Positions 4,288 through 61,619 of a DNA stretch of 64,000 nucleotides are shown one piece after another. How positions within the stretch are numbered: the first letter of the stretch is position 1; each line of letters begins with the position of its first letter. Position numbers and translations under genes: made by a program. Source of the stretch: an uncultured Candidatus Saccharibacteria bacterium (GTDB lineage: Bacteria; Patescibacteriota; UBA1384; XYA2-FULL-43-10; 1-14-0-10-43-13); NCBI GenBank assembly GCA_964406145.1, contig CAYOQP010000001.1:7706-71705 (forward strand), in the 5' to 3' direction. Under the pieces are notes generated by a model that had not been told where the DNA came from, searched no databases, and saw nothing but the letters and a program-made list of their open reading frames with translations.

Positions 4288-5531
4288 ACGAAGCAGTCCC
4301 AAAAATTGAAGGCCACGCCGCTTTTTACTCTCATTTGAAGAATGGCCATGTTGATAAAGCCCAGCTAATTGGTTTAGAGAATGATCGTTTTGTCGAGAAA
4401 ATACTGTTTGGACGAAAATATTTTGAAGCCCCGATCATTACTTCACGTATCTGCGGAATATGTCCGACAATTCACAACATCACTTCAATAAAGGCGATCG
4501 AGGCGGCTTGCGGAATTGTGCCATCGTCTCAGACCAAGAAACTTCGAGAGCTAATGCTTTGTGGCCAGATGATACAAAGTCATTCTCTCCATCTCTACCT
4601 TTTAGTCGCGCCAGATTTTGTTGGAGCAAGCTCTTCATTTGAATTACAAAAAACTCATCCGGAATTATTCAAAAATGCCATCGAGCTAAAAAAATATGCT
4701 GACAAAATCATTGAAACAATCGGCGGACGAGCAGTCCATCCTATTGCCAGTGTCCCAGGCGGATTCAAGTCCTATCCAGAGAAAAAAGAACTGGAATTCT
4801 TAGCTGAATCAGCTAAACAGGTAGAAGAAATTGCCGCCAGAACTCTACGCCTTTTTGCTAGCTTTGGCTATCCGACAATAGAGCGAGAGATTATTTATAG
4901 CTCACTTCATTCAGATGGGGAATATGCTTTTTATGATGGAGATATTTGGACCTCGGCTGGCGACCTATTTAAGGCCGAGGAATATAACAGTTATATTTAC
5001 GAAGAGATTAAACCATACACTCATGCAAAGTTTGGGACTCTTAAGGGCAAGGAGATCATGGTTGGGGCAATGGCTAGATATAATCAAAACCACAGTCACT
5101 TCAATAGAAAAACCAAAGAAATTATTTCTGAATTAGGAATTGTTAACAAATTCGATAATCCATTCAATAATATTTTGGCCCAAGCAATCGAGAACTACTA
5201 TTTCGTTACTTTGTCTGCTGAAATTATTTCTAATTTATTGAAAAATGGCATTAAAAAAGAACATATTTTACCACCGAGAAGGTTCGGCATTGGGACTGGT
5301 GTCTGCGAAGCACCTCGTGGAACCTTGTTTCATCACTACGAGCTAGACGAGGAAGGCTTTATTACAAAATGTGATATTATCACACCAACGGTGCAAAGTT
5401 TGCCAGCCTTAGAACACGACATGAAGAAAATGGGGCCATTGCTCAAAGAGGCCGATACCGAAGAAAGAAACAGACTAATCGAAATGTTAATACGTGCTTA
5501 TGATCCTTGTATCACCTGCGCCACACACTAG
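4284..5531 (+). CDS. hydA: [NiFe] hydrogenase large (alpha) subunit, group 3b-like
   Basis: 415 aa. N-terminal Ni-binding L1 motif RICGICPTIH and C-terminal L5 motif DPCITCATH, after which the ORF stops. Overlaps hydD by 4 nt. Confidence 0.9.
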   Translation: MNEAVPKIEGHAAFYSHLKNGHVDKAQLIGLENDRFVEKILFGRKYFEAPIITSRICGICPTIHNITSIKAIEAACGIVPSSQTKKLRELMLCGQMIQSHSLHLYLLVAPDFVGASSSFELQKTHPELFKNAIELKKYADKIIETIGGRAVHPIASVPGGFKSYPEKKELEFLAESAKQVEEIAARTLRLFASFGYPTIEREIIYSSLHSDGEYAFYDGDIWTSAGDLFKAEEYNSYIYEEIKPYTHAKFGTLKGKEIMVGAMARYNQNHSHFNRKTKEIISELGIVNKFDNPFNNILAQAIENYYFVTLSAEIISNLLKNGIKKEHILPPRRFGIGTGVCEAPRGTLFHHYELDEEGFITKCDIITPTVQSLPALEHDMKKMGPLLKEADTEERNRLIEMLIRAYDPCITCATH

Positions 5532-10649: not shown

Positions 10650-11204
10650 TTAGCGCCGGATTTTGGAATAGCGTTTCCTCTCGGCAAAGCGAGACTCGCC
10701 GATTCCGGTATCCGAGCGCAAGAAGTCGCCCATGACTCCAACGGATACCCCGAACATCTCACGCAGAACGTAGTAACTCGTGACCATGCCCTCGCCACGT
10801 CTCAGCTGCTCCATTTCGACAAGCACATAGTCGCGTAGCCTTTCGAGCTGATCCATGGGATACTTTTCCCAGCCTCTGGCGCGGAGCGGACCAGAGCGAG
10901 AAGTACCTTTGGGTTTAGCAGGCCCAGGCCGCGATGTCGGTTTCATCGGTTTGCCGGATCGAACTGCTGGCACATCATGCGGAAGGCCAGTGAGGCGCCT
11001 CCATTCCGGTTTCTCCGATTCTCTCAGTCGGGCCTCTAGTAGTCGAGCGACAAAAGCCGCATCCATGGCAAACTGTCTTGCCAGATCTTCGCATCCCGGT
11101 ATATACCGTCCAACTTTGATGCGTCGACGTACGAACTGCATCAAAGAATGACAAGCCTTGTCAGGATACTGCGAAAAGTCGGCGGATGTGTCTGTAGTAG
11201 TCAT
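10650..11204 (-). CDS. Hypothetical protein on GC-rich island 1, with a possible HTH segment
   Basis: 184 aa ORF, GC about 60% against an AT-rich backbone. Own SD GAGGAGG 11 nt upstream of the ATG. Upstream TTGAAA / ATAGTG promoter-like elements. Putative HTH CEDLARQFAMDAAFVARLL. No recognisable family. Confidence 0.4.
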   Translation of the reverse strand: MTTTDTSADFSQYPDKACHSLMQFVRRRIKVGRYIPGCEDLARQFAMDAAFVARLLEARLRESEKPEWRRLTGLPHDVPAVRSGKPMKPTSRPGPAKPKGTSRSGPLRARGWEKYPMDQLERLRDYVLVEMEQLRRGEGMVTSYYVLREMFGVSVGVMGDFLRSDTGIGESRFAERKRYSKIRR

Positions 11205-11272
11205 TCTTCGACATTCCTCCTCAAGATTTGTATTTGCACTATACCATGTTTTCTATTTTTTTCAAGGAGTTG

Positions 11273-11301
11273 TTGACTCTAATTAGTCTTTCTGGTAGTA
11301 T
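11273..11301 (+). promoter_or_regulatory. Sigma70-like promoter for the plus-strand island 1 gene
   Basis: TTGACT (11273-78), 17-nt spacer, TAGTAT (11296-301), in an AT-rich divergent intergenic region. Confidence 0.4.
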
Positions 11302-11357
11302 ACTTTCATGTTTTTGACACGCAAAAAAAAGCAAGACATCATTAAGTCATTCGGCTA

Positions 11358-11429
11358 CGGGCCAGCTTTTTAGTGCAGTACAAAAACGTGCGCTTGAAGG
11401 AACTGGCCTCCGGGCCAGATTTTTTTTTG
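11358..11429 (+). promoter_or_regulatory. Leader attenuator-like element with an intrinsic terminator hairpin, T-run, and a possible upstream anti-terminator copy
   Basis: CTGGCC-TCCG-GGCCAG hairpin (11404-11419) followed by TTTTTTTTT. The upstream segment CGGGCCAGC (11358-66) can pair alternatively with CTGGCC. It lies between the promoter and the SD of the 11499 ORF. Confidence 0.4.
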
Positions 11430-11498
11430 TTTATCCAGGGGAAAATTCCTACATCATTCCCTGTAATAGACAAAATACCTTGAGGAGGTACACACGTC

Positions 11499-11891
11499 AT
11501 GGTCACTGCTCTTTCGAGCCGCAACACCTTGGCGGGCAAAAAACCCGTCAGCATGACACCAGAAGAGTTGATCAGCCTGGTGGCGGAAGCACCGCTCCAG
11601 TGGTCAAGCTCGCACATCGCCGCTGCCACTATCCTCGGCTGTATGCTCGCGGAAGAAGGTGGCTTTGCCGACACGATCAAGCAGACGCCGCAAGCTCTCG
11701 CGAACATCGCCCGCTGTCGGCGCCTTCACCCCGGAGTTCGCGACACCGCCCTCCTGATCCTCACCCAGCACGAAGGAGAAGGGGCCACGGCCCCTGACAA
11801 CCGCTTTGCGCGGGGATTCGAGCGCCGCCAGAAGCTTCGGACCAAGAAGCCCAAGGCCTGCGGCGGGCCAGTTCCCTGCTTCATCCAGTAG
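11499..11891 (+). CDS. Hypothetical protein on GC-rich island 1
   Basis: 130 aa ORF, GC about 62%. Strong SD GAGGAGG 9-10 nt upstream of the ATG. Basic C-terminus. No recognisable family. Confidence 0.4.
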   Translation: MVTALSSRNTLAGKKPVSMTPEELISLVAEAPLQWSSSHIAAATILGCMLAEEGGFADTIKQTPQALANIARCRRLHPGVRDTALLILTQHEGEGATAPDNRFARGFERRQKLRTKKPKACGGPVPCFIQ

Positions 11892-11918
11892 TGCGCTTAA
11901 AGCGCCACAAGTTCAGAA

Positions 11919-11947
11919 ACGCCTCAGTGCAATGCACTGAGGCGTTC
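11919..11947. terminator. GC-rich perfect inverted repeat at the right edge of island 1, between convergent genes
   Basis: AACGCCTCAGTGCA / TGCACTGAGGCGTT, 14-bp arms. A second small palindrome GCGCTT-A-AAGCGC lies at 11892-11904. No T-run. Confidence 0.35.
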
Positions 11948-11957
11948 CCTGTTTAAA

Positions 11958-13166
11958 CTAGATCTTCTCTATTGATACTTTATCAGTAACCAAATCAATT
12001 TTTTCTATGCCACCAGCTTCAAGTGATTTCTTGGAGACAATTATTCTCTCCGGACAGCCAATCAAATCCGCCTCAGCAAATTTTTCTCCAGCCGACATGT
12101 CTCTATCATCATAAAGAACTTCGACGCCATCAGACTTTAACTTCTTATAAATCTTTTCTGCTTCTTCGTTTTGATTTAATGAGATGATCTCGACTTGATA
12201 TGGAGCGACCTCTTTCGGCCAGACCATTCTATTCTTGGTTGCGTCATAATAGACCTCGACAACTGTCGCCATCGAACGAGTGATGCCAATGCCATAACAG
12301 CCCATGATAAATTCTTTCTCATTTCCATCCTTGTCAAGAAATGTTGCCTTCATCGGCTTTGAAAATCGATCCTTAAGCGGGAAAATATTGCCCACCTCAA
12401 TGCCACGATCTGCCTGGATTTTGCCATCACATTTTGGGCATTTATCATTTTCTTTGACCTCTGCGATCTCCTTATTTTGAGCAAAATCACATTTATCACA
12501 ATGATAGATTGTATCTTCACCTACTGCAGTTAAGACCTGAAACTCATGAGAGAATTTCGAGAATATTCCACCAGAAGCCTCAACAAGCTTTGCATCGAGA
12601 CCCAATCTTTTGAAAACATTGAAATAGGCTGGGATCGATTTTTGATAGAATTCTTCATGTTGATCCAGAGTAGCTGAGAAACTGTACATGTCCTTCATGA
12701 TGAATTCTCTACCACGCAAAAGACCGGATTTAACTCTTGGCTCATTTCGAAATTTTGTTTGAATTTGATAAATAGCAAAGGGCAGATCCTTATAGGAAGT
12801 AATATTTTTTCTCACAATATCAGTGACCTCTTCCTCATGAGTTGGAGCAAGATTCATCTCTTTGCCACGACTATCTTTCAGTTTGTAGAAAATATCAATA
12901 GCTGAATTCCAACGGTCGGTCTCTTCCCAGAGCTCTTTTGGCTGAAGAACATTCATAAGAATTTGTTGGCCACCGATTTCATCCATCTCTTCTTTGACTA
13001 TCTTTTCAATCTTTTCGATTACTCTTTGCCCCAAAGGCAAAAGAGCATAGGCTCCAGCCATATGTTTATGAACAAATCCGGCTCTAATTAAATAAGAAGC
13101 ATTAGTTGAATCGGCATCAGCTGGCGTTTCTTTTCTGGTTTTGAAAAATAGCTTCGATAGTTTCAT
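11958..13166 (-). CDS. proS: Prolyl-tRNA synthetase, minimal form without the INS editing domain
   Basis: 402 aa. Class II motif 2 FRNEPRVKSGLLRGREFIMKDMYSF, motif 3 GCYGIGITR, and a C-terminal anticodon-binding domain. Confidence 0.9.
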   Translation of the reverse strand: MKLSKLFFKTRKETPADADSTNASYLIRAGFVHKHMAGAYALLPLGQRVIEKIEKIVKEEMDEIGGQQILMNVLQPKELWEETDRWNSAIDIFYKLKDSRGKEMNLAPTHEEEVTDIVRKNITSYKDLPFAIYQIQTKFRNEPRVKSGLLRGREFIMKDMYSFSATLDQHEEFYQKSIPAYFNVFKRLGLDAKLVEASGGIFSKFSHEFQVLTAVGEDTIYHCDKCDFAQNKEIAEVKENDKCPKCDGKIQADRGIEVGNIFPLKDRFSKPMKATFLDKDGNEKEFIMGCYGIGITRSMATVVEVYYDATKNRMVWPKEVAPYQVEIISLNQNEEAEKIYKKLKSDGVEVLYDDRDMSAGEKFAEADLIGCPERIIVSKKSLEAGGIEKIDLVTDKVSIEKI

Positions 13167-28066: not shown

Positions 28067-30094
<2,028 letters not shown>

Positions 30095-30134
30095 TTACCG
30101 AGAACAACATGCCAATTCAATAGAAGGGAATCTC

Positions 30135-30162
30135 GAAAAAAGCCCCGACATAAAGTCGGGGC
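30135..30162 (-). terminator. Rho-independent terminator after the GC-elevated 304-aa gene
   Basis: On the minus strand: GCCCCGAC-TTTATG-TCGGGGC followed by TTTTTT. Confidence 0.65.
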
Positions 30163-30177
30163 AAGAGATGTTAGTGC

Positions 30178-31092
30178 TTACGATATTAAACTGGCGACTT
30201 CCCGAAGGTTGTTCCAGCCCTTTCGTAAACAAATAAAGTCGTGAGCGGTCAAATTGTTCCGCCTTTCGACAATAGAGAAATCTGCCTCGCCACTAGCATC
30301 AACCAGTAGATATAGGAGATCGCGATAGATCTCTTTGGAGACAGAGAGCATATCTTCGAGCGAACAAGGGATATCGCCCAAGATAGGCTCGTTCTCTACT
30401 CGGTGGTAGGTGGGACGACGACCGATTGGAGTAAACAGTTGGTGGCTTTGCCAACGAGAGTGTTCTCCCATTTTGGCCAAAACACGTCTAGCCTCGTAGA
30501 AGATTTCCTCCGCTGCGCCTCCGACCATAATCACTTCGTCCCAGTTTTCCGCCCCATCAACCTGGAGAGGACGGCGGCCGATCAGCGCAGAGAGTGGATC
30601 GCGCATATACCAAGCATGAGAAGCCATGTATTTAAGCGCTTCCCATCCGCCCCTGCGCTCAGCAAACTGCTTGATGCGGTCCCCTCCGTGCTGGGAAAGA
30701 TAGCTAGCCATTTCATCGATCATCAGCCACTCATCAGCCAATATCGGGCGATCGCGCAGGATTCGAACGGGCGCGTTGGGGTGGAAATTGGCGACATACG
30801 CTTCGAGGTATCGAATCGCTCGGTCGGCGAAATCCGCTACGAATGGCTCGAACCCCTGGCCAAGCAGAAGGGACGAATAGTTTTCCGCGAAATAGAATTC
30901 GACATCTGCTTTTGCTTTGTCATCAGCCATTTCACGAAGAAGTGCCAGAGCCGGTATAATATATGCAGGAAGCCGAACCGGCACCTCGCAGTTGGGATCG
31001 CAACCGAAACCGGTTACGATAATGGTCCTTCCGTTAAGACGGACAGGACGGGTATCCTTGGCGAAAAGGAATTTCGGGATGTTAAGGAGCAT
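30178..31092 (-). CDS. Hypothetical protein of unknown function. GC-elevated terminal gene of the yerC-like / dapF-like operon.
   Basis: 304 aa ORF, about 50-55% GC against about 35-40% in its flanks. SD GGGAGG 8 nt upstream of the ATG. Own terminator. No recognisable motif. The antisense frame is also open, consistent with high GC. Confidence 0.5.
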   Translation of the reverse strand: MLLNIPKFLFAKDTRPVRLNGRTIIVTGFGCDPNCEVPVRLPAYIIPALALLREMADDKAKADVEFYFAENYSSLLLGQGFEPFVADFADRAIRYLEAYVANFHPNAPVRILRDRPILADEWLMIDEMASYLSQHGGDRIKQFAERRGGWEALKYMASHAWYMRDPLSALIGRRPLQVDGAENWDEVIMVGGAAEEIFYEARRVLAKMGEHSRWQSHQLFTPIGRRPTYHRVENEPILGDIPCSLEDMLSVSKEIYRDLLYLLVDASGEADFSIVERRNNLTAHDFICLRKGWNNLREVASLIS

Positions 31093-31156
31093 CTGTTTTC
31101 CTCCCAGACAATCTCAAGCGTTAGCGTCTAACACTTGGTTTTTACCCAGGAAAAGA

Positions 31157-32029
31157 TTAAATTTCTAAAATATTTTCAGACAATATTTTCACTTCGCTCT
31201 CGACTGATATTTCCGATTTGCCTAAAAATATTTTTATTTTTTTTCCGCTTGGCTGAACAATCTCAAAGGATTTTTTGCCAGTAATTTTGCTTAATTGGTA
31301 AGCCAGGGCCACTGAAGCTGAGCCACAAGCTGTCTCGTAATAAATTGTATTGAGACAATTTACTCTGACTAATGGTAATATTTGGTAAGACCACCGATTT
31401 AATTTGCGGAAAGCCACAAAACCAGCTGCACCCCCCTGAGACAAATCCGGCAACTGCCGATAAATCTGATCAAATAAATCATTAAAACCCGCATTCTCAG
31501 CACTACTGAGGCCTTTATTCTGATCCGAAAATAATTTCTGAGCTGAAGGCGGCAGAATACTTAGATCGACAAGTATCTGTGAAATCCCAGTGAGAACGAC
31601 CCGAATACAATCGACAGCGAACGAGTCTAAAATCAACTTCTCTCCAGACAATTTTTGGATAATTTCGTAACCAAATTTCACCTTGACGCAGTAACTTCCA
31701 ATAAAGATATTGCTAACTTCCGCCTTGACTAAACTTGGTGATCCCGATGTTTTAAATATGACGGAAGATCTTCTAGACTTCAGGGCGATCAAAACTGCTG
31801 CACACCGAGTAGCGTTAACACAAAGCTCACCGTTGGCCATATTAAGATTTGGAATAATGCCACCAAAATTAACAAAACCAACCTGCTCAACTTTCATCCT
31901 TTGCACATATGGGTCAGCTAGAAGTTTTCTGGCCAAGCCAATCCGATCAGCAAAAGGAACTTTGGTCACAACTAGCGCGGTAATATTCCCTCCTGGATCA
32001 GCGATAATAAATTTGATTTTTTTCTTCAT
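31157..32029 (-). CDS. Diaminopimelate-epimerase-fold (DapF/PhzF superfamily) protein with a non-canonical active-site motif
   Basis: 290 aa. N-terminal FIIADPGGNITALV (DapF-like GxGNDF region). First Cys motif NGELCVNATRCA (DapF: CGNGxRC). Second Cys motif ETACGSASVALA. Confidence 0.5.
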   Translation of the reverse strand: MKKKIKFIIADPGGNITALVVTKVPFADRIGLARKLLADPYVQRMKVEQVGFVNFGGIIPNLNMANGELCVNATRCAAVLIALKSRRSSVIFKTSGSPSLVKAEVSNIFIGSYCVKVKFGYEIIQKLSGEKLILDSFAVDCIRVVLTGISQILVDLSILPPSAQKLFSDQNKGLSSAENAGFNDLFDQIYRQLPDLSQGGAAGFVAFRKLNRWSYQILPLVRVNCLNTIYYETACGSASVALAYQLSKITGKKSFEIVQPSGKKIKIFLGKSEISVESEVKILSENILEI

Positions 32030-32106
32030 TTTTTTTCCTTAAATACGAAAAAATCTCCCGGAGGAGATTTAATGCGGATAAAATATTAGTTTTTAGATAA
32101 ACGAAA

Positions 32107-32415
32107 TTACTCTAGCTTATCCAAAGCTAATTCATACCCGCCCATGCCATGATGTAACCAATAATTTATTCGAACAACTGTCGTAGTTGAAACGCCAATT
32201 TCTTTAGCAATATCACGGACACTTTTGCCCTCTTTGAGAAGTTTGGCCGCCAAAAATCTTCGACTCGCCTCTTCTATTTCCTCGATAGTCAGAAGATCAC
32301 GCAGAAAATTAGCCATACTGTCAGCACGGTCAATAGCGGCCAAAGCCTTGTAAAGCTCCTTAGCCGCTGGTGTTTTTAATGAATTTTCTAATTCTTTTTT
32401 CATTTCTCTCTTCAC
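32107..32415 (-). CDS. TrpR-like YerC/YecD family DNA-binding protein
   Basis: 102 aa. Trp-repressor fold signature TIEEIEEASRR..AAKLL..GKSVRDIAKEIGVSTTTVVR. Confidence 0.75.
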   Translation of the reverse strand: MKREMKKELENSLKTPAAKELYKALAAIDRADSMANFLRDLLTIEEIEEASRRFLAAKLLKEGKSVRDIAKEIGVSTTTVVRINYWLHHGMGGYELALDKLE

Positions 32416-32429
32416 CTGATTAGTATCAA

Positions 32430-32456
32430 TGTGTTAACACAATGATACAGTATCAT
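32430..32456. promoter_or_regulatory. Two adjacent perfect palindromes in the divergent promoter region; candidate operator for the TrpR-like regulator
   Basis: TGTGTTAACACA (32430-41) and ATGATAC-A-GTATCAT (32442-56), located 15-40 nt upstream of the yerC-like ATG. Confidence 0.4.
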
Positions 32457-32463
32457 TTTATCT

Positions 32464-32496
32464 TTGTCAATAGGTTATTGAAGTATTTGTTATAAT
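32464..32496 (+). promoter_or_regulatory. Promoter for the MBL-fold gene, extended -10 type
   Basis: TGtTATAAT (32488-96), with TTGTCA upstream at a non-optimal 21-nt spacing. Confidence 0.45.
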
Positions 32497-32527
32497 GAAC
32501 TTAAATAATTAATTTTCAGGAAAAAAA

Positions 32528-33094
32528 ATGGCCAAAATCAAAGTACTATTATCCGGTTTTACTAATGCTGATTGCCGAAAAAACGGCGAGGAAGAGATCA
32601 CTCGCTGCACTACTACACTAATTTATGCCGACAATATGATTATTTTGTCCGACCCTGGAGTATTGTCAGACCAGAAGATAATGATTGATGCCCTAAAAAA
32701 GGAGGGGTTGGGTGTTGATGATATTTCACACATCTTCATAACTCACTCTCACTTGGACCATTATCGCAACATCGGCATGTTTCCCAAGGCCAAAACAATA
32801 GAATTTTGGGGTATTTGGGACGGTGGAAAATGCGAGCCTTATTCAGAACATTTTTCTAAAGATTCAAAAATAATCAAAACCCCAGGACACAGCTATGATG
32901 GCCTAACTATGCTTGTCACCACAAGTGACGGCGTTGTCGCCATCGCTGGGGATCTCTGGTGGAGCAAAAAAGGTCCAGAAAAAGATCCTTTTGCCCTTGA
33001 TAATGAAATATTAAAAAAATCACGAGAAGAAGTTCTAGTTCTCGCCAATTATATAGTTCCTGGTCACGGAGATATATTCAAAGTTGTAAAATAA
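32528..33094 (+). CDS. Metallo-beta-lactamase-fold hydrolase
   Basis: 188 aa. THSHLDHYRN (HxHxDH) and downstream His/Asp ligands. Confidence 0.8.
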   Translation: MAKIKVLLSGFTNADCRKNGEEEITRCTTTLIYADNMIILSDPGVLSDQKIMIDALKKEGLGVDDISHIFITHSHLDHYRNIGMFPKAKTIEFWGIWDGGKCEPYSEHFSKDSKIIKTPGHSYDGLTMLVTTSDGVVAIAGDLWWSKKGPEKDPFALDNEILKKSREEVLVLANYIVPGHGDIFKVVK

Positions 33095-33100
33095 TATTTT

Positions 33101-33510
33101 GTGTGGGCGCGACGGTAAGTCTTTTACCATGGCGCCCACAGAATACGGGGACCAATCACTAGTCACCCCCATTTCTGGCGACCGGCCTCTTCCCCTTGTT
33201 TGAACCCCTACTGGGCTCTTTTTTCTTCGACGAGAATCTACGAGTAAGCCGCCACCACCAAATTTGCCAGGTCTCGATCCGACTCACATCATTGTTGCCG
33301 GACTTCCAGGCTTTGGCCGACTGATAGCAGCCGATAAAGCGAGAGTCACCCTCTGTGATCTCAAGCTGCCAGCTACCAGCAAAGAATCGACTAACGCCTA
33401 GATAACTCCCGGCGGGGACTTTGGTGTTGCCATTTGACGAACAAGCCTCAGTCTCCTCTTCTCTTAAGTTAAGCAGAAAGTGTGCCATACCGACTCCTTC
33501 CACAAGACTG
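33101..33510. other. GC-rich (about 55-58%) non-coding stretch with strong hairpins; candidate structured RNA or decayed remnant of acquired DNA
   Basis: No credible ORF on either strand. The only ORF is a 114-aa W/R-rich minus-strand frame. Begins with the 9-bp stem TGTGGGCGC...GCGCCCACA. Composition contrasts sharply with the flanking 28%-GC spacer. Confidence 0.3.
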
Positions 33511-33564
33511 TGTCTTTAGAGACAATAACACAAGAAAAAAAGCTATTCAATCAAATAAATACCT

Positions 33565-33593
33565 TTGACAAAAATATAAAAAAATGTTATGAA
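33565..33593 (+). promoter_or_regulatory. Sigma70-like promoter for the GC-rich isomerase gene
   Basis: TTGACA (33565-70), 17-nt spacer, TGtTATGAA (33585-93). AGGAG SD at 33672-76, 7 nt before the GTG start. Confidence 0.45.
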
Positions 33594-33683
33594 AATAACA
33601 TTGTCCTAACCGGCAAGTACAATTACATACATGCCGATTGACCAAGAAAAAATCTACTTGGCAATTGGAACAGGAGCACAGAA

Positions 33684-35171
33684 GTGTTAAACACCCCCGC
33701 CGTTAATCTCGGCATCGTTGGCGTCAGCCGGGATTGCTTCCCGATCGAACTGACCCGGACCCGTCTCGGCCAGTTGGCCGAAGCCTGTGGCGACCATGCC
33801 ACCCCGTTCACCACGATCATCGAGAGCGAACGCGATGTCGCATCTGTCCTCAAAGAGGCGCATGATCTCGGCACCAACGCGATCGCGATCTATCTCGGCA
33901 ACTTCGGCCCCGAAGGCCCACTGTCCCTCCTCGCCGAAAAGTTCGGTGGCCCCGTCATGATCTGTGGCGCCGCCGAAGAGAGCATGCACACCCTGATCCA
34001 GGGTCGTGGCGATGCCTTCTGTGGCATGTTGAACGCGCACTACAATCTCGGACTGCGCCGGAAGCGCGTCCACACCCCGCAGAATCCCGTGGGCCTGCCT
34101 CACGAACTGGCGATTGAGATCGCCCACTTCATCAAGGTCGCCCGCGTCGCCCTCGGCATGAAAAGCCTCAAGGTCTTCGGATTCGGCCCGCGGCCCCAGG
34201 ACTTCCTGGCCTGCAACGCGCCGATTCAGCCGATCTACAACCTCGGCATCGAGATCATGGAGAACAGCGAGCTCGACCTCCTGAGGCTCTACAAAGCCGT
34301 CGATGAGAACGATCCTGAAATCGCAGTGATCGCCGAAGACATGGCTGCCGAACTGGGCCAGGGTAACACCTACCCCGACCTGTTGGCCAAGCTGGCCCGT
34401 TACGAACTGGCACTGTCCCGCTTCTTCGACGCCAACCTCGGCATGAGCAACTATGCCGTGATGGCCGACAAGTGCTGGCCGGCCTTCGAGGCCGAATTCG
34501 GCTTCGTCCCCTGCTACGTCAACAGCCGCTTCGCCAAGCGCGGCATTCCCATCGCTTGCGAAGTGGACGTCTACGGCGCGATCAGCGAGTATATGTGCCA
34601 GCTCGCGAGCCTCGCACCAGCGACCCTGCTGGACATCAACAACACCGCCCCGACCGATTTGTTGGCCAAGCTCGGCCGCAACTTCGATCCGGGCAACTTC
34701 TGGATGGGTTTCCATTGCGGCAATACCCCGTCCTGCCAGATGAAGAGCTGCGCTATGGCCTACCAGCTCATCATGAATCGTCTGATGGAAGGTGGCAACA
34801 CGCCCGACATCACCCGCGGTACCCTGGAAGGCCAGCTTCGCCCCGGCGCGGCAACGATCTTCCGCCTGCAAGGGACATCGGACAACTATCTGGCCAGCTA
34901 CATGGCGGAGGGCGAGATCGTCGATCTCGATCCCATGAGCTTCGGCGGCATCGGAGTCTTTGAGATTCCCGACTTCGCCCGCTTCTACCGCCACGTCCTT
35001 TTGAGTCTGCGTTTTCCGCATCACACCGCCGTGGCCTTCGACCACTGCGGCGAGGTGCTCTATGACGCGACGAAGATGCTCGGCCTCGCCAACATCTTCA
35101 CGCCGAACCCGGCGTCGATCCCCTACGAGCGCGAGAACCCGTTCTCCCTCGCCCGGATCAGCGGCAAGTAA
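33684..35171 (+). CDS. L-fucose/L-arabinose isomerase-family (COG2407-like) sugar isomerase, on GC-rich island 3
   Basis: 495 aa, about 62% GC, GTG start. N-terminal VNLGIVGVSRDCFP...AIYLGNFGPE pattern of FucI-like proteins. Central acidic metal-site candidates CEVDVYGA. Antisense frame fully open, a GC artefact. Confidence 0.5.
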   Translation: MLNTPAVNLGIVGVSRDCFPIELTRTRLGQLAEACGDHATPFTTIIESERDVASVLKEAHDLGTNAIAIYLGNFGPEGPLSLLAEKFGGPVMICGAAEESMHTLIQGRGDAFCGMLNAHYNLGLRRKRVHTPQNPVGLPHELAIEIAHFIKVARVALGMKSLKVFGFGPRPQDFLACNAPIQPIYNLGIEIMENSELDLLRLYKAVDENDPEIAVIAEDMAAELGQGNTYPDLLAKLARYELALSRFFDANLGMSNYAVMADKCWPAFEAEFGFVPCYVNSRFAKRGIPIACEVDVYGAISEYMCQLASLAPATLLDINNTAPTDLLAKLGRNFDPGNFWMGFHCGNTPSCQMKSCAMAYQLIMNRLMEGGNTPDITRGTLEGQLRPGAATIFRLQGTSDNYLASYMAEGEIVDLDPMSFGGIGVFEIPDFARFYRHVLLSLRFPHHTAVAFDHCGEVLYDATKMLGLANIFTPNPASIPYERENPFSLARISGK

Positions 35172-59317: not shown

Positions 59318-60564
59318 TTTCTTAATCCTTCAACAATTCGATCGAGCACTCCATCAACGACACCTTCGCTACCGGCTAAATCAATGGCTAAATTAGCTAA
59401 GGCCATAGGGGTAATGTCCTGAGAACCCTTCAATTTCCCTGTCTCATCGATAATTGAAGTCACCTGTTTTGGCTTGATAAAATCAACTTTCGGCTGTTTA
59501 GCAAATGGTAGATTTTTCGTCCATGAGCGCTTCTCGAGATAATCTTTGATCTCAGGAAGCAATGAGCCGCCGCCGCACAGCAATATCTTCGATGGCAAAA
59601 GCTCAACATTCGAGAAATCCTCTAAGGCCAATTCTACTCCGGAGAGCCAGACTTCACAATCGTTTTCAATTGCCTTCCTGATCTTGCTTCCAATCTCTGA
59701 ATCTTTCTCTATCTTACCCGCAGAATAGTCAAGTTTTAACTGTTCAGCATCAGCAAAAGGCTTGTCAAATGCATCAGCAATAGACTTAGTAAACACTCGT
59801 CCGCCGATCGCGAACATCTTTGTCCCCTCGACTCCTCCGGCTCGGACAACAGCAATGTCGGTCGTACCGCCACCGATATCAACAAAAATTGAGGAAAATT
59901 CAGAAGAATCCTCGAGACCAACACAGCGCGCAACAGCATATGGCTCAGCGGCAATGGAGAGTAAGTCTAGTTGCAAGTCCTCAGCAATAGTTTGCAAAGC
60001 ACCAAGATGAACGATTGGGGCAAAAGCATTGAATATTCCGACCTGAACATCGCGACCCTGAAAACCGACTGGATTTGTGATCTTGTAGCCGTCTATTCTG
60101 ACATCAACAACAGCAGAATTTACCAATCTGACGTCAAGCTCAGCCTGACCAGTTTCCCAAGCCAATTCACTTCTAGTGCGGTCGAAGGCGCGCTCTTGGA
60201 CTTGTTCGATAATATCTTTGAGCTCCTTAACAGTTATTTTTTCTTTTGATTCTTCGCGCTTGTAGTGAATGACGGTTGTTGTGCCTTTAACAAGCTCACC
60301 GGCAATACCAATAACACACTGACGTGGTGCTACTTTGGCTTCTTCAAAAGCCTGCGCCAGAGCTTTTTCGCAATTTTTGATCACACCAGAAATGTCAGTG
60401 ACTCGTCCGCCTTGCATATCAGAGAGCTGCTGCTTCTGGCGACCGACACCGATGACATGAGCGACGTCATCATCAATACGAAAAACCAGCACTTTGACAA
60501 ATTCAGTCCCGATGTCCAGTGCGATTGCATAGTTTTTCTTATTCTTTATTCCAAAAAGTCCCAC
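59314..60564 (-). CDS. ftsA: Cell-division protein FtsA
   Basis: 416 aa. Actin-fold motifs ALDIGTEFVKV and DIGGGTTDIAV. GTG start. Confidence 0.9.
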   Translation of the reverse strand: MGLFGIKNKKNYAIALDIGTEFVKVLVFRIDDDVAHVIGVGRQKQQLSDMQGGRVTDISGVIKNCEKALAQAFEEAKVAPRQCVIGIAGELVKGTTTVIHYKREESKEKITVKELKDIIEQVQERAFDRTRSELAWETGQAELDVRLVNSAVVDVRIDGYKITNPVGFQGRDVQVGIFNAFAPIVHLGALQTIAEDLQLDLLSIAAEPYAVARCVGLEDSSEFSSIFVDIGGGTTDIAVVRAGGVEGTKMFAIGGRVFTKSIADAFDKPFADAEQLKLDYSAGKIEKDSEIGSKIRKAIENDCEVWLSGVELALEDFSNVELLPSKILLCGGGSLLPEIKDYLEKRSWTKNLPFAKQPKVDFIKPKQVTSIIDETGKLKGSQDITPMALANLAIDLAGSEGVVDGVLDRIVEGLRK

Positions 60565-60633
60565 AAAAATCCCTCGCTTATAGGTATAGGACTATTATAT
60601 CAAATGAAAAAATTAATGCCAATAAAAACGGGA

Positions 60634-60656
60634 AGGCGGCCCGTCATGGGCCGCCT
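60634..60656 (-). terminator. GC-rich terminator hairpin overlapping the cdsA stop codon
   Basis: On the minus strand: AGGCGGCCC-ATGAC-GGGCCGCCT (9-bp perfect stem) followed by a T-rich tract. Confidence 0.5.
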
Positions 60657-61473
60657 AGAATCCGATCAAGCGGAAGAGAAGGTAAGCAACAGGAGCAGCA
60701 TAGATCATGCTGTCCAGTCTATCAAGCATTCCGCCATGGCCGGGGAAAATCCCTCCGGAATCCTTTTTGTGAAGATTCCGCTTCAGGAGCGATTCGACCA
60801 AGTCTCCGACCTGGCCAAAGACTCCAACGACTGGGCCCAATAGGACCAAAGTCGCTTTGTGTAGTAAGATGGCAAACACTGCCGCCATCAAGATCGCCGC
60901 TACGAAGCCAGCAACACAGCCGCCCACGGTCTTGCCAGCACTGATGTCTGGGCAAAGCTTGGCAGTCTGCAGTTTCCTGCCGATCAGGTAAGCGAAGATG
61001 TCTGTCGCCCAGATCGTAAAGAAAAAGGCGACCACGAGCATTGAGCCCGTACCGGTCTGAAAACCGAAGACAATACTCTCGCCCGGAATGGCACGGATTG
61101 CGGCGATAAAGCTCGGCAGTAATCCGATATACAGAACTAGCCTGACAGGATTGTCGGCCTTTAGGGCCAACTTACCCAGTACCAGTTCACCCCCAAGAGC
61201 CATCATAGTCACCAAAGCCGACAGGACAAGAACCACTTCGAAGCCACCAGTGATACAGGCATAACTAGTTGCATAAGCCGCAACGACAGTTATGACCGAG
61301 AACAACTTGATCGTCTCCGATTGACCTGCCATGTCGCAGTACTCGCTCACCATCATGACGACAGTGATGGCTATAAGAGCCAGAAAGAAATCTTGGTTAC
61401 CCAAGAATATTGATGCCACAGTTAGGGGGATCCCGATAACTGTGACGACTAATCTTGCCAGAAAAGTCTTCAT
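60655..61473 (-). CDS. cdsA: Phosphatidate cytidylyltransferase (CDP-diglyceride synthase), on GC-rich island 4
   Basis: 272 aa polytopic protein. C-terminal signature KRNLHKKDSGGIFPGHGGMLDRLDS. GC clearly elevated against both flanks. Confidence 0.85.
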   Translation of the reverse strand: MKTFLARLVVTVIGIPLTVASIFLGNQDFFLALIAITVVMMVSEYCDMAGQSETIKLFSVITVVAAYATSYACITGGFEVVLVLSALVTMMALGGELVLGKLALKADNPVRLVLYIGLLPSFIAAIRAIPGESIVFGFQTGTGSMLVVAFFFTIWATDIFAYLIGRKLQTAKLCPDISAGKTVGGCVAGFVAAILMAAVFAILLHKATLVLLGPVVGVFGQVGDLVESLLKRNLHKKDSGGIFPGHGGMLDRLDSMIYAAPVAYLLFRLIGF

Positions 61474-61543
61474 GGGGAAGACCCCTTGGACAGCGTGCCA
61501 TCCTAGTCACGACTTACGTCGGTGTCGTTGTTAGCGACACTGT

Positions 61544-61572
61544 ATAGTACAATAATTTGTTAATTTAGTCAA
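61544..61572 (-). promoter_or_regulatory. Sigma70-like promoter for cdsA, with a 5' UTR of about 70-80 nt containing small hairpins
   Basis: Minus strand: TTGACT, 17-nt spacer, TACTAT. Confidence 0.4.
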
Positions 61573-61619
61573 CTAAAAAAGCCATCAGGAAATGACTTTG
61601 TCGCATTCTCAACTGGTGA

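What the first reader, a model, noticed from the sequence alone, without database searches (positions are those of the whole stretch)
31157..32456. TrpR/YerC-like regulator with twin palindromic operators, driving a DapF-fold protein with a non-canonical active site
The DapF-superfamily protein keeps the fold hallmarks (ADPGGN start, two Cys regions). Its first catalytic motif reads CVNATRC rather than the DapF CGNGxRC, which suggests a different epimerase/racemase or PhzF-like isomerase specificity. Immediately upstream of the co-transcribed TrpR-like gene lie two adjacent perfect palindromes, TGTGTTAACACA and ATGATAC-A-GTATCAT. They overlap the predicted promoter and are ideal dimeric-repressor operators. 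Together with the unknown third gene, this looks like a ligand-regulated small-molecule conversion module.
Basis: partly seen in the sequence, partly recalled or inferred. Interest (0 to 1): 0.5.

Follow-up and report, generated by a model that had tools for sequence, protein, structure and literature searches.

The report
Histidine repressor beside histidine-racemase-like gene
This locus in a small Saccharibacteria-type genome holds a known kind of histidine-sensing repressor gene with a conserved operator, followed by a histidine-racemase-family enzyme and an unannotated protein with a tRNA-synthetase fold; it is mostly ordinary, apart from that third protein.

Summary
The sequence features are all present as described. 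The interpretation needs four corrections.

1. **Regulator.** The TrpR-like protein belongs to the YerC family. That family has been characterised as HisR, an L-histidine-dependent repressor (PMC9413887).

2. **Enzyme.** The DapF-fold protein is neither a DapF nor an orphan. It belongs to the CntK/HisR histidine-racemase family (Pfam CntK_N).
   - A family profile scores 7e-38 against the solved histidine racemases and 0.012 against the best true DapF.
   - Both catalytic Cys and every proposed histidine-binding side chain are kept.
   - Val in place of Gly after the first Cys is a common family variant (27 of 152 representatives).
   - Relatives are fused to HisRS or HisG, or lie next to HisS, HutH, HisE and HisR genes.

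3. **Palindromes.** Only TGTGTTAACACA is conserved. It is the core of an 18-bp palindrome just downstream of the -10 hexamer, kept in five other distinct orthologous promoters. The left arm of the second palindrome lies in an unconserved spacer, and its right arm is the -10 hexamer itself.

4. **Transcription.** A terminator-like hairpin follows the regulator gene in eight of the nine distinct related loci, and the downstream genes vary among close relatives. Co-transcription is therefore doubtful.

The third gene is a conserved partner of the racemase-like gene. Its predicted fold is that of TyrRS/TrpRS, but it lacks their signature motifs. It is the most novel element here.

The parts
32107..32403 (-). 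hisR/yerC-type TrpR-family repressor gene (98 aa from the ATG; the mechanical ORF extends to GTG at 32415)
   Evidence: Pfam Trp_repressor scores 5e-16. TIGR02531 YerC/YecD scores 57.1 bits against a cutoff of 42.2, whereas the TrpR equivalog scores 27 against 67. The best solved structure is 3G1C, E. eligens HisR, at 2.6e-16. The source annotation also gives 98 aa.
32442..32470 (-). sigma-70-type promoter of yerC: TTGACA (32470-32465), 17 nt, TATCAT (32447-32442)
   Evidence: This site matches 11 of 12 positions and is the best promoter-like site in 30000-33300. TTGACAA and the -10 (GTAnCAT) are invariant across 6 orthologous promoters.
32427..32444 (.). conserved 18-bp palindromic operator candidate CAATGTGTTAACACAATG (+ strand); the core TGTGTTAACACA is at 32430-32441, next to the -10 hexamer and over the expected transcription start
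   Evidence: It occurs once in the window. It is conserved as CATyGTGTTAACACArTG in L088, L082, L089, L090/91 and L092-94, whose YerC proteins are 77-94% identical, while the promoter spacer is not conserved.
32442..32456 (.). second palindrome ATGATAC-A-GTATCAT; the right arm is the -10 hexamer and the left arm lies in the promoter spacer
   Evidence: It occurs once in the window. The left arm is not conserved in any ortholog except approximately in L088. It is probably not an independent operator.
32417..32428 (-). conserved block TGATACTAATCA in the 5' leader, between the operator and the RBS (AGGTGA, 32417-32412)
   Evidence: It is identical in the window, L088, L089 and L090, and partly kept in L082. 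Its role is unknown; it may be an operator extension.
32087..32109 (-). conserved 23-nt block that starts at the yerC stop codon (TAATTTCGTTTATCTAAAAACTA)
   Evidence: It is conserved in L082, L083 and L090/91 whatever the downstream gene. It is unexplained.
32040..32070 (-). terminator-like hairpin AAATCTCC-TCCG-GGAGATTT followed by TTTTTTCGTATTT, between yerC and the racemase-like gene
   Evidence: The terminator scan found it. An equivalent hairpin with a T-run follows yerC in L082, L083, L088, L089, L090/91, L092-94 and L001, but not in L086. The hairpin forms in both the minimum-energy and the centroid fold.
31157..32029 (-). CntK/HisR-family cofactor-independent (two-Cys) racemase-like gene, 290 aa; the catalytic Cys70 codon is at 31822-31820 and the Cys235 codon at 31327-31325
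   Evidence: Pfam PF26317 CntK_N is precomputed for this protein. Against solved structures the single sequence gives 3e-9 and the family profile 7e-38 to F. nucleatum HisR. The AlphaFold2 model has pLDDT 95, and its top Foldseek matches are HisR (1.6e-21) and CntK (1e-18). C70 and C235 are invariant in the family alignment.
31116..31136 (-). 9-bp-stem hairpin (AAGUGUUAG-ACG-CUAACGCUU) between the racemase-like gene and gene X, with no T-run
   Evidence: This was read from the sequence. It was not analysed further.
30178..31092 (-). gene X: a 304-aa orphan with a predicted class-Ic aminoacyl-tRNA-synthetase (TyrRS/TrpRS) fold, and a conserved partner of the racemase-like gene
30142..30162 (-). 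strong intrinsic terminator (GCCCCGAC-TTTAT-GTCGGGGC followed by TTTTTT) that ends the cassette before ligA
   Evidence: The terminator scan found 8 pairs, 7 of them G-C.
32528..33094 (+). divergently transcribed small metallo-beta-lactamase-fold gene (188 aa) with an extended -10 TGTTATAAT at 32488-32496
   Evidence: Pfam Lactamase_B scores 3.7e-13. The same divergent partner of yerC appears in L088 and in the contig that carries P0003; in L092 a 113-aa gene lies between the two, and in L093 a 619-bp gap with no called gene separates them. The promoter was read from the sequence.

Best explanation
**The regulator unit.** The locus is a HisR (YerC)-type histidine repressor gene with its own promoter, operator and terminator.
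- The repressor, presumably a dimer with L-histidine as co-repressor, would bind the conserved 18-bp palindrome CATTGTGTTAACACATTG. That palindrome abuts the -10 hexamer and covers the expected transcription start, so binding would shut off the repressor's own promoter (autoregulation).

**The downstream cassette.** It holds two genes.
- The first is a cofactor-independent two-thiol amino-acid racemase of the CntK/HisR family, most probably interconverting D- and L-histidine.
- The second is protein X, which has a TyrRS/TrpRS-like fold and no known function.

**Expression.** No separate promoter is detectable for the cassette. It is therefore most likely expressed by read-through of the leaky terminator after hisR, and would be de-repressed when histidine is scarce.

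**Direction of the reaction.** Relatives of the racemase gene sit next to, or are fused to, enzymes that consume L-histidine (HisRS, HutH). This favours a salvage role (D-His to L-His) in an organism with little biosynthetic capacity.

**Shown versus inferred.**
- Shown: family memberships, conservation of catalytic and histidine-binding residues, operator conservation, the hairpin that recurs in related loci, and gene linkage.
- Inferred: histidine as ligand and as substrate, read-through, and the direction of the reaction.
For: **Regulator**
- TIGR02531 scores above its cutoff, and the best solved structure is 3G1C, treated as HisR in PMC9413887.
- That paper reports L-histidine-stimulated DNA binding, 20-bp palindromic operators whose consensus differs between lineages, and frequent autoregulation.

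**Operator**
- TTGACAA, GTAnCAT and GTGTTAACACAnTGAnAC are invariant or nearly so in 6 distinct orthologous promoters, while the spacer between -35 and -10 varies freely.
- More distant candidate-phyla loci carry the published HisR box TTTA-N6-TAAA at the same promoter position: L001, L040, L043 and L086.

**Enzyme**
- The family profile scores 6.8e-38 against HisR, 7e-36 against CntK and 0.012 against the best DapF.
- Foldseek ranks HisR and CntK above DapF.
- HisR residues N18, E49, E65, C67, N69, E206, C209 and S211 align with N15, E48, E68, C70, N72, E232, C235 and S237 (PMC11602996). All are invariant in alignment A1.

**Histidine link**
- Fusion proteins exist with HisRS (P0014) and HisG (P0016); both carry the same C(M/I)NATRC motif type.
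- Among 81 genome loci, neighbours include HisS (17), HutH (6), HisE (4) and YerC (14, of which 13 lie within about 1 kb).
- In L089 the gene that follows the orthologous yerC is HisI.

**Promoter**
- The scan finds no other promoter-like site on the minus strand between 32030 and 32440.
Against: - A terminator-like hairpin follows yerC in eight of the nine distinct related loci examined. The gene after it varies among close orthologs (radical SAM, HisI, LOG-like, a 232-aa unknown). The adjacency in this lineage could therefore reflect a variable insertion spot rather than regulation.
- The operator occurs only once in 64 kb and not directly in front of the racemase-like gene.
- The operator sequence does not match the published HisR consensus cacTTTAnnnnnnTAAAgtg.
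- The enzyme is only 21-23% identical to F. nucleatum HisR and scores far below the NCBIfam equivalog cutoffs: 59 against 400 and 36 against 300.
- Gly68, whose backbone is proposed to bind the substrate carboxylate, is Val here.
- The histidine-binding residues themselves are a model from the paper, not a structure with bound substrate.
- No histidine gene lies elsewhere in the window.
Confidence: 0.55

Rival explanations
1. The adjacency is incidental. On this view yerC is a stand-alone, autoregulated, monocistronic gene at a conserved chromosomal position (M48 peptidase ... yerC ... ligA). Downstream of it lies a variable slot, and the racemase-like gene plus X were inserted there and are expressed independently of the repressor.
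For: - A terminator-like hairpin follows yerC in most loci examined.
- The YerC proteins are 77-94% identical, yet the next gene differs: radical SAM in L088, HisI in L089, small ORFs plus a LOG-like gene in L090, and a 232-aa unknown plus a glycosyltransferase in L092.
- X has a deviant GC content: 52% overall and GC3 54%, against about 40% and 35% for its neighbours.
Against: - YerC and CntK-like genes are adjacent in many unrelated lineages and in three different gene orders: YerC-CntK, YerC-X-CntK and HutH-CntK-YerC.
- 13 of the 14 YerC hits in 81 loci lie within about 1 kb of the CntK-like gene. That zone is roughly a third of the sequence searched, so by my arithmetic the probability is about 1e-5.
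- One alternative downstream gene is again a histidine gene, HisI.
- No separate promoter is seen for the racemase-like gene.
Confidence: 0.25
2. The enzyme is a two-Cys racemase or epimerase of the CntK/HisR family, but it acts on something other than free histidine, such as another amino acid or a D-amino-acid-containing dipeptide. The Gly-to-Val change beside the catalytic Cys would mark the altered specificity.
For: - V71 replaces the Gly found in 124 of 152 family representatives.
- The protein scores far below both histidine-racemase equivalog cutoffs.
- Many relatives sit beside or are fused to VanX-type D-Ala-D-Ala dipeptidases, M20 peptidases and GNAT acetyltransferases. These suggest a wider D-amino-acid or peptide metabolism.
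Against: - The three Glu residues proposed to hold the imidazole and the amino group (E48, E68, E232) are invariant.
- Members with V, I or M at this position include the HisRS and HisG fusions.
- YerC and X are linked to both the Gly and the hydrophobic variants, so the substitution does not define a separate context.
Confidence: 0.15
3. The palindromes are not protein-binding sites. They would be either chance features of an AT-rich intergenic region or a 5'-leader RNA hairpin.
For: - Perfect 12-bp palindromes are as frequent in the window as in shuffles (21 against 18.7).
- Each palindrome type arises in 6-10% of shuffles of the intergenic region.
- The second palindrome is not conserved.
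Against: - The first palindrome, with its flanks, is conserved base for base across promoters whose spacers have diverged completely. Its symmetry is kept, and L090 has a perfect 18-mer.
- Its length and symmetry fit the 20-bp palindromic structure reported for TrpR/HisR operators.
- Its position over the transcription start means that about half of it would not be in the RNA.
Confidence: 0.05

Closest known systems
HisR (B. subtilis YerC) histidine repressor of the TrpR family (PMC9413887; structure 3G1C)
   Same: - It belongs to the same protein family: TIGR02531 scores above its cutoff and 3G1C is the best solved match.
- It is small, about 100 aa.
- A palindromic operator of about 20 bp sits at its own promoter, consistent with autoregulation.
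- It is genomically linked to histidine-related genes.
   Different: - The operator in this lineage reads CATTGTGTTAACACAATG, not cacTTTAnnnnnnTAAAgtg. Its GTTAAC centre recalls the TrpR motif as quoted in that paper.
- The host is a Saccharibacteria-type candidate-phyla bacterium, a group that paper never mentions in its main text.
- The neighbouring genes are a racemase-like gene and a synthetase-fold orphan, not his biosynthesis or transport genes.
- The effector was not tested here.
Cofactor-independent histidine racemases HisR of Fusobacterium nucleatum (PDB 9CR1/9CR6, PMC11602996) and CntK of Staphylococcus aureus (6JIS/6JIW)
   Same: - It has the same fold and the same Pfam family, CntK_N.
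- It has the Cys pair at the N-termini of the two central helices.
- It has the same proposed substrate-contacting residues (N, E, E, N, E, S).
   Different: - It is 21-23% identical to HisR and 16-17% to CntK in the structure-based alignments.
- Val replaces Gly after Cys1, and Gly replaces Ala after Cys2.
- An extra insertion of about 25 residues (around 160-185) brings it to 290 aa against 260-270.
- The genomic context differs: there are no cntLM staphylopine genes, and it does not match the Fusobacterium neighbourhood.
- Activity was not tested.
Diaminopimelate epimerase DapF
   Same: It shares the two-domain pseudo-symmetric fold, the two-thiol mechanism, and the 'NxxRC' part of the first motif.
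   Different: - It matches no Pfam DAP_epimerase model.
- The best profile E-value to any solved DapF is 0.012, against 7e-38 for the histidine racemases.
- The first motif is CVNA, not CGNG.
Class Ic aminoacyl-tRNA synthetases (TyrRS/TrpRS) and their derivatives the cyclodipeptide synthases (for gene X)
   Different: - It has no detectable sequence similarity: no Pfam or NCBIfam hit.
- It has no H-x-G-H, KMSKS-like or G-x-D-Q motif.
- It is about 300 aa, with no recognisable anticodon-binding domain.
- Its own invariant motifs (TGF, RDRPI, ExRGG, YxRDP, GGxxEExF) are not those of either family.

Membership tests
DapF (diaminopimelate epimerase) | Matches the DAP_epimerase domain model (PF01678) or DapF family models above threshold | tested here: not met
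   The protein has no PF01678 hit at E<=1 and no DapF NCBIfam hit. The family profile reaches only E 0.012 against the best solved DapF.
DapF (diaminopimelate epimerase) | Two catalytic cysteines at the N-termini of the two central helices | tested here: met
   C70 and C235 are invariant in A1 and align with C67 and C209 of HisR. Helices start at residues 71 and 236 in the model. This feature is shared by the whole superfamily, so it does not discriminate.
DapF (diaminopimelate epimerase) | First motif C-G-N-G-x-R-C | tested here: not met
   The sequence reads C-V-N-A-T-R-C.
CntK/HisR cofactor-independent histidine racemase | Member of Pfam CntK_N (PF26317), with closest sequence and fold matches to solved histidine racemases | tested here: met
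   PF26317 is precomputed for this protein and its homologs. The family profile scores 6.8e-38 against 9CR1/9CR6 and 7e-36 against CntK. Foldseek ranks 1-9 are HisR or CntK chains.
CntK/HisR cofactor-independent histidine racemase | Scores above the NCBIfam equivalog cutoffs (NF052224 HisR, NF033599 CntK) | tested here: not met
   The scores are 59 bits against a cutoff of 400, and 36 bits against 300. The protein is a distant family member, not an equivalog.
CntK/HisR cofactor-independent histidine racemase | Proposed histidine-contacting residues (HisR N18, E49, E65, G68, N69, E206, A210, S211) | tested here: met
   By the alignment these correspond to N15, E48, E68, V71, N72, E232, G236 and S237. 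All the side-chain contacts are kept. The two backbone contacts changed residue (G to V, A to G). The residue list comes from PMC11602996 and is itself a model.
CntK/HisR cofactor-independent histidine racemase | Racemises D- and L-histidine in vitro | not testable with these tools
   This needs an enzyme assay. Indirect support comes from the HisRS and HisG fusions and the HisS, HutH, HisE and HisR neighbours of relatives.
HisR (YerC) TrpR-family histidine repressor | Matches the YerC/YecD family model and the solved HisR structure | tested here: met
   TIGR02531 scores 57.1 bits against a cutoff of 42.2, and Pfam Trp_repressor scores 5e-16. 3G1C matches at 2.6e-16 over residues 6-97.
HisR (YerC) TrpR-family histidine repressor | Palindromic operator of about 20 bp at target promoters, with consensus cacTTTAnnnnnnTAAAgtg in most lineages | tested here: inconclusive
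   A conserved 18-bp palindrome lies at the gene's own promoter, but its sequence differs from the consensus. The canonical TTTA-N6-TAAA box is present at the yerC promoters of other candidate-phyla loci: L001, L040, L043 and L086. The paper reports that motifs differ between lineages.
HisR (YerC) TrpR-family histidine repressor | L-histidine-dependent DNA binding and control of histidine genes | not testable with these tools
   This needs a binding assay. Only genomic linkage to histidine-related genes is shown.
E. coli-type tryptophan repressor TrpR | Scores above the TrpR equivalog model (TIGR01321) | tested here: not met
   It scores 27 bits against a cutoff of 67.25.
Class Ic aminoacyl-tRNA synthetase (gene X) | Rossmann-type catalytic domain with TyrRS/TrpRS topology | tested here: met
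Class Ic aminoacyl-tRNA synthetase (gene X) | HIGH and KMSKS signature motifs, and a match to the tRNA-synt_1b model | tested here: not met
   No H-x-G-H, K-[MILVF]-S-x-S or G-x-D-Q motif occurs in any of 6 homologs. X has no Pfam or NCBIfam hit. The motif test was a pattern search, not a structural superposition.
Cyclodipeptide synthase (gene X) | Closest fold match to cyclodipeptide synthases, and a match to their family model | tested here: not met

The most novel reading that the evidence does not exclude
Gene X may found an undescribed family derived from class-Ic aminoacyl-tRNA synthetases that works together with the histidine racemase-like enzyme in candidate-phyla bacteria.

- It could activate D- or L-histidine, or use histidyl-tRNA, to build or recycle a histidine-containing compound.
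- The whole cassette would then be under a histidine repressor whose operator has been rewired in this lineage.
- The cluster in L086 would be the fullest version of such a pathway. It holds two HisRS paralogs, a phosphoribosyltransferase-like gene, HisR, the racemase-like gene behind a His-codon leader ORF, and X.
Probability: 0.2. Interest if true: 0.7.

Novelty: new variant of a known kind. Interest (0 to 1): 0.42.

Why it matters
**What was already known.** Both main proteins fall into families that were characterised recently: the HisR repressor in 2022 and the HisR/CntK histidine racemases in 2019-2024. The finding is therefore not a new kind of system.

**What is new here.**
- The repressor family and the racemase family are recurrently linked to each other and to HisRS, HisG, HutH and HisE. 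This holds across candidate-phyla bacteria and Clostridia.
  - The full-text search found no paper mentioning CntK together with Saccharibacteria.
  - Neither key paper mentions the partner family.
  - The linkage gives independent genomic support for histidine as the substrate of a large, mostly unannotated enzyme family: 2725 clusters at 50% identity.
  - It also raises the possibility that reduced-genome bacteria use D-histidine.
- This Saccharibacteria lineage has a distinct, well-conserved operator sequence for HisR.
- An unannotated protein with a synthetase fold is tightly coupled to the racemase-like gene. It is a concrete target for enzymology.

Tried and rejected
**Searches that failed or gave nothing**
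I used protein homologs and contig look-ups instead.
- Rfam at a permissive threshold over 29900-33700 gave only two sub-threshold sRNA matches on the terminator at about 30140. It found no riboswitch or T-box between yerC and the racemase-like gene.
- Folding the yerC-racemase intergenic RNA gave no significant structure beyond the hairpin (z = -1.4). I dropped the attenuator idea for this window.
- I looked for a second copy of the operator. At up to 3 mismatches to the 18-mer, the window has none. The 12-mer hits with 1-2 mismatches at 20402, 28781, 42092 and 54811 were not followed. The hit at 31811 is simply the codons for Cys-Val-Asn of the active site.
- The canonical HisR box TTTA-N6-TAAA occurs four times in the window and never near this locus. 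These are probably chance hits in AT-rich DNA.
- No HisS, HutH, HisE, VanX, M20 or GNAT relatives occur in the window.

**Ideas rejected**
- Canonical DapF is rejected.
- E. coli-type TrpR is rejected.
- A promoter for the racemase-like gene in the conserved 23-nt block after the yerC stop codon is rejected: reading the sequence gives no acceptable -35/-10 pair.
- The idea that Val71 defines a separate functional subgroup is rejected, because context associations cross the Gly and hydrophobic variants.
Full report
**1. What is in the sequence**

All three genes of the finding lie on the minus strand.
- A 98-aa TrpR-like gene lies at 32107-32403. It starts at an ATG preceded by AGGTGA; the mechanical ORF reaches a GTG at 32415.
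- A 290-aa gene lies at 31157-32029. Its product begins MKKKIKFIIADPGGN and contains GELCVNATRC and YETACGS.
- A 304-aa gene ('X') lies at 30178-31092. A strong terminator follows at 30162-30142, and ligA comes next.
- A 188-aa metallo-beta-lactamase-fold gene is transcribed divergently from 32528.

The best promoter-like site of the region is TTGACA (32470-32465), 17 nt, TATCAT (32447-32442), with 11 of 12 matches. The -10 hexamer is therefore the right arm of the second palindrome, and the first palindrome covers the expected transcription start.

Neither palindrome is a dispersed repeat. Taken alone they are not statistically striking. Perfect 12-bp palindromes occur 21 times in the window, against 18.7 in shuffles. 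Either type arises in 6-10% of shuffles of this AT-rich spacer.

**2. The regulator is a HisR (YerC) histidine repressor homolog**

- It passes the YerC/YecD family model (57 bits against a cutoff of 42) and fails the TrpR equivalog (27 against 67).
- Its best solved relative is 3G1C from Eubacterium eligens at 2.6e-16.
- PMC9413887 treats YerC and 3G1C as HisR. [quoted passage not shown]
  - 20-bp palindromic operators, with consensus cacTTTAnnnnnnTAAAgtg in most lineages but lineage-specific variants;
  - DNA binding stimulated by L-histidine in vitro for the Ruminococcus gnavus protein;
  - candidate autoregulatory sites in about half of the genomes studied.
- That paper never mentions Patescibacteria or Saccharibacteria in its main text.

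**3. Which palindrome matters**

Close homologs of the regulator (77-94% identical) were located on their contigs and their promoters aligned.
- Six distinct promoters were compared: the window, L088, L082, L089, L090/91 and L092-94.
- The -35 (TTGACAA), the -10 (GTAnCAT) and the block yGTGTTAACACArTGAtACtAATCA are invariant or nearly so. The 15 nt between -35 and -10 have diverged completely.
- The conserved symmetric element is an 18-mer, CATTGTGTTAACACAATG, which is perfect in L090. The window has one mismatched pair at 32427-32444.
- Its size and symmetry fit the 20-bp palindromic structure reported for TrpR/HisR operators. Its GTnnAC centre matches the TrpR motif quoted in that paper.
Only the 94%-identical L088 keeps it, and only approximately. 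It is probably fortuitous, or at most strain-specific.
- More distant candidate-phyla loci carry canonical HisR boxes (TTTA-N6-TAAA) at the same place in the yerC promoter:
  - L001: GCTTTAATGAACTAAAGC
  - L040: ACTTTAATTTGCTAAAGT
  - L043: CTTTACTTAAGTAAAG
  - L086: CTTTAGTTAGGTAAAG
- These boxes support the family assignment and the idea of autoregulation.

**4. The 'DapF-fold' protein is a CntK/HisR-family racemase homolog**

*Placement*
- It has no Pfam DAP_epimerase hit. Its only NCBIfam hits are the two histidine-racemase models, far below their equivalog cutoffs.
- The source databases assign it to PF26317 CntK_N.
- A profile of 12 homologs scores 6.8e-38 against F. nucleatum histidine racemase, 7e-36 against S. 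aureus CntK and 0.012 against the best true DapF.
- The AlphaFold2 model has pLDDT 95 and pTM 0.92. Its Foldseek ranks 1-9 are HisR or CntK chains (1.6e-21 to 4.4e-18), ahead of DapF at 3e-15.

*Active site*
- Both catalytic cysteines, C70 and C235, are invariant.
- Using the alignment and the binding model of PMC11602996, residues N18, E49, E65, N69, E206 and S211 of HisR correspond to N15, E48, E68, N72, E232 and S237. All are invariant in the alignment.
- Only two backbone-contact positions differ: G68 is V71 and A210 is G236.

*Family size and the Val variant*
- The exhaustive search found 2725 cluster representatives at E<=0.001.
- Among the best 152 representatives, the residue after the first Cys is Gly in 124 and V, I, L, M or A in 27. 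CVNA is therefore a common variant and not an oddity.

**5. Independent evidence that the family deals with histidine**

*Fusion proteins*
- HisRS plus a CntK-like domain (P0014, motif CMNATRC).
- HisG plus a CntK-like domain (P0016, motif CINATRC).
- VanX-type dipeptidase fusions (P0021, P0031).
- GNAT acetyltransferase fusions (P0020, P0058, P0154).

*Neighbours within 2.5 kb in 81 genome loci from one-genome-per-species contigs*

| Neighbour | Loci |
|---|---|
| VanX-like | 25 |
| HisS | 17 |
| M20 peptidase | 14 |
| YerC | 14 |
| GNAT | 13 |
| HutH | 6 |
| HisE | 4 |
| X | 4 |

*Recurrent gene orders*
- YerC - CntK-like::GNAT - VanX - HisS, in several candidate phyla.
- HisS - X - CntK-like, in Parcubacteria and Gracilibacteria.
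- HutH - CntK-like - YerC, in Oscillospiraceae. This is probably the hisR2-hutH cluster mentioned in PMC9413887, which does not mention a racemase.
- YerC - CntK-like - X, in this lineage.

YerC and X are linked to both the Gly and the hydrophobic motif variants. Because HisRS and HutH both consume L-histidine, I infer that the enzyme supplies L-His from D-His. That is an inference, not a result.

**6. Is the racemase-like gene driven by the regulator's promoter?**

- A hairpin (AAATCTCC-TCCG-GGAGATTT) followed by a T-run lies between the two genes at 32070-32040.
- An equivalent hairpin with a T-run follows yerC in L082, L083, L088, L089, L090/91, L092-94 and L001. L086 has none.
- Among close orthologs, the genes after the hairpin differ:
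  - racemase-like gene plus X (window, L082, L083, and the contig that carries P0003);
  - radical SAM (L088);
  - HisI (L089);
  - two small ORFs plus a LOG-like gene (L090);
  - an unknown 232-aa protein plus a glycosyltransferase (L092).
- yerC therefore looks like a self-contained unit with a variable slot downstream.
- Against pure coincidence:
  - the pairing recurs in unrelated lineages and in different gene orders;
  - one alternative downstream gene is again a histidine gene;
  - no other promoter-like site precedes the racemase-like gene.
- I therefore favour partial read-through, with moderate confidence.

**7. The third gene**

- X has no family assignment and only five close homologs besides itself.
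- It is adjacent to a CntK-like gene wherever its flanks are visible: the window, L002/L085, L005, L040, L066 and L086.
- L086 has the order HisS - HisS - phosphoribosyltransferase-like - YerC - CntK-like - X.
- No HIGH, KMSKS or GxDQ motif is present. The family has its own invariant motifs: TGF, RDRPI, ExRGG, YxRDP and GGxxEExF.
- Its function is unknown. A role in activating an amino acid, or in using an aminoacyl-tRNA, alongside the racemase is a hypothesis only.
- A histidine-using cyclodipeptide synthase is known from Parcubacteria (PMC7613923). X is not a member of that family.

**8. Origin**

The closest genome locus is an uncultured Candidatus Saccharibacteria assembly, L002/L085. It has the same order, racemase-like - X - ... 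- ligA - gatC - gatA. The window therefore most likely comes from a Saccharibacteria-type Patescibacterium. This is an inference.

**9. Verdict**

New elements:
- the recurrent linkage of the histidine repressor family with the histidine-racemase family;
- a distinct operator in this lineage;
- the synthetase-fold partner protein.

Unproven:
- histidine as ligand and as substrate;
- read-through regulation;
- any function for X.

Noticed in passing
window 33684-35171 (+): This ORF resembles the L-fucose isomerase C-terminal domain and sulfoquinovose isomerase. It has 62% GC and GC3 82% in a 40%-GC genome, so it is either a recent foreign gene or an assembly chimera. The source annotation instead calls the opposite-strand 501-aa ORF, which has no Pfam hit; that is probably the wrong strand.
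   Followed up: partly
window 30178-31092 (-), and X homologs in L085, L084, L086, L040, L005: Gene X is richer in GC than its neighbours: 52% with GC3 54%, against about 40% and 35%. In every other locus examined, the X homolog is also 4-9 points richer in GC than the adjacent racemase-like gene.
   Followed up: partly
window 32087-32109 (-); also L082, L083, L090/L091: A 23-nt block that begins at the yerC stop codon (TAATTTCGTTTATCTAAAAACTA) is conserved between loci whose YerC proteins are only about 78-80% identical, whatever gene follows. No convincing promoter or structure was found in it.
   Followed up: partly
L086 4864-4926, within the 155-nt leader 4875-5028: A 20-codon ORF (MTHKYIKFYLFHHHHRKRTF) with four consecutive His codons overlaps the yerC stop codon and precedes the CntK-like gene. 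That gene's real start appears to be at about 5029. The leader folds unusually well (z = -3.3). It looks like a histidine leader-peptide attenuator in front of a racemase-like gene.
   Followed up: partly
proteins P0014, P0016, P0021, P0031, P0020, P0058, P0154; loci L013, L038, L039: Natural fusions join the CntK-like domain to HisRS, HisG, VanX-type D-Ala-D-Ala dipeptidase or GNAT acetyltransferase.
   Followed up: yes
L069, L071, L077 (Oscillospiraceae): The gene order is histidine ammonia-lyase, then the CntK-like gene, then YerC. This probably corresponds to the hisR2-hutH cluster noted in PMC9413887, which does not mention a racemase.
   Followed up: partly
window 31814-31822 (-): The codons for Cys-Val-Asn of the active-site motif read TGTGTTAAC. 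This is the same 9-mer as the left three-quarters of the operator core, and it explains the 2-mismatch hit at 31811-31822. It is a coincidence.
   Followed up: yes
window 32528-33094 (+): A small metallo-beta-lactamase-fold gene lies divergently upstream of yerC here. The same divergent gene appears in L088, L092/L093 and the contig that carries P0003. The L092 copy has a weak Anti-Pycsar Apyc1 hit. The -35 hexamers of the two divergent promoters overlap at 32464-32470.
   Followed up: no
window 31116-31136 (-): An inverted repeat with a 9-bp stem (AAGTGTTAG-ACG-CTAACGCTT) lies between the racemase-like gene and X, with no T-run after it. An earlier count gave wrong coordinates for it; these are the correct ones.
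   Followed up: no
window 11001-12000 and 60001-62000: These are further 1-kb blocks with raised GC (0.51, and 0.46-0.48) against a background of 0.37-0.42. They were not examined.
   Followed up: no
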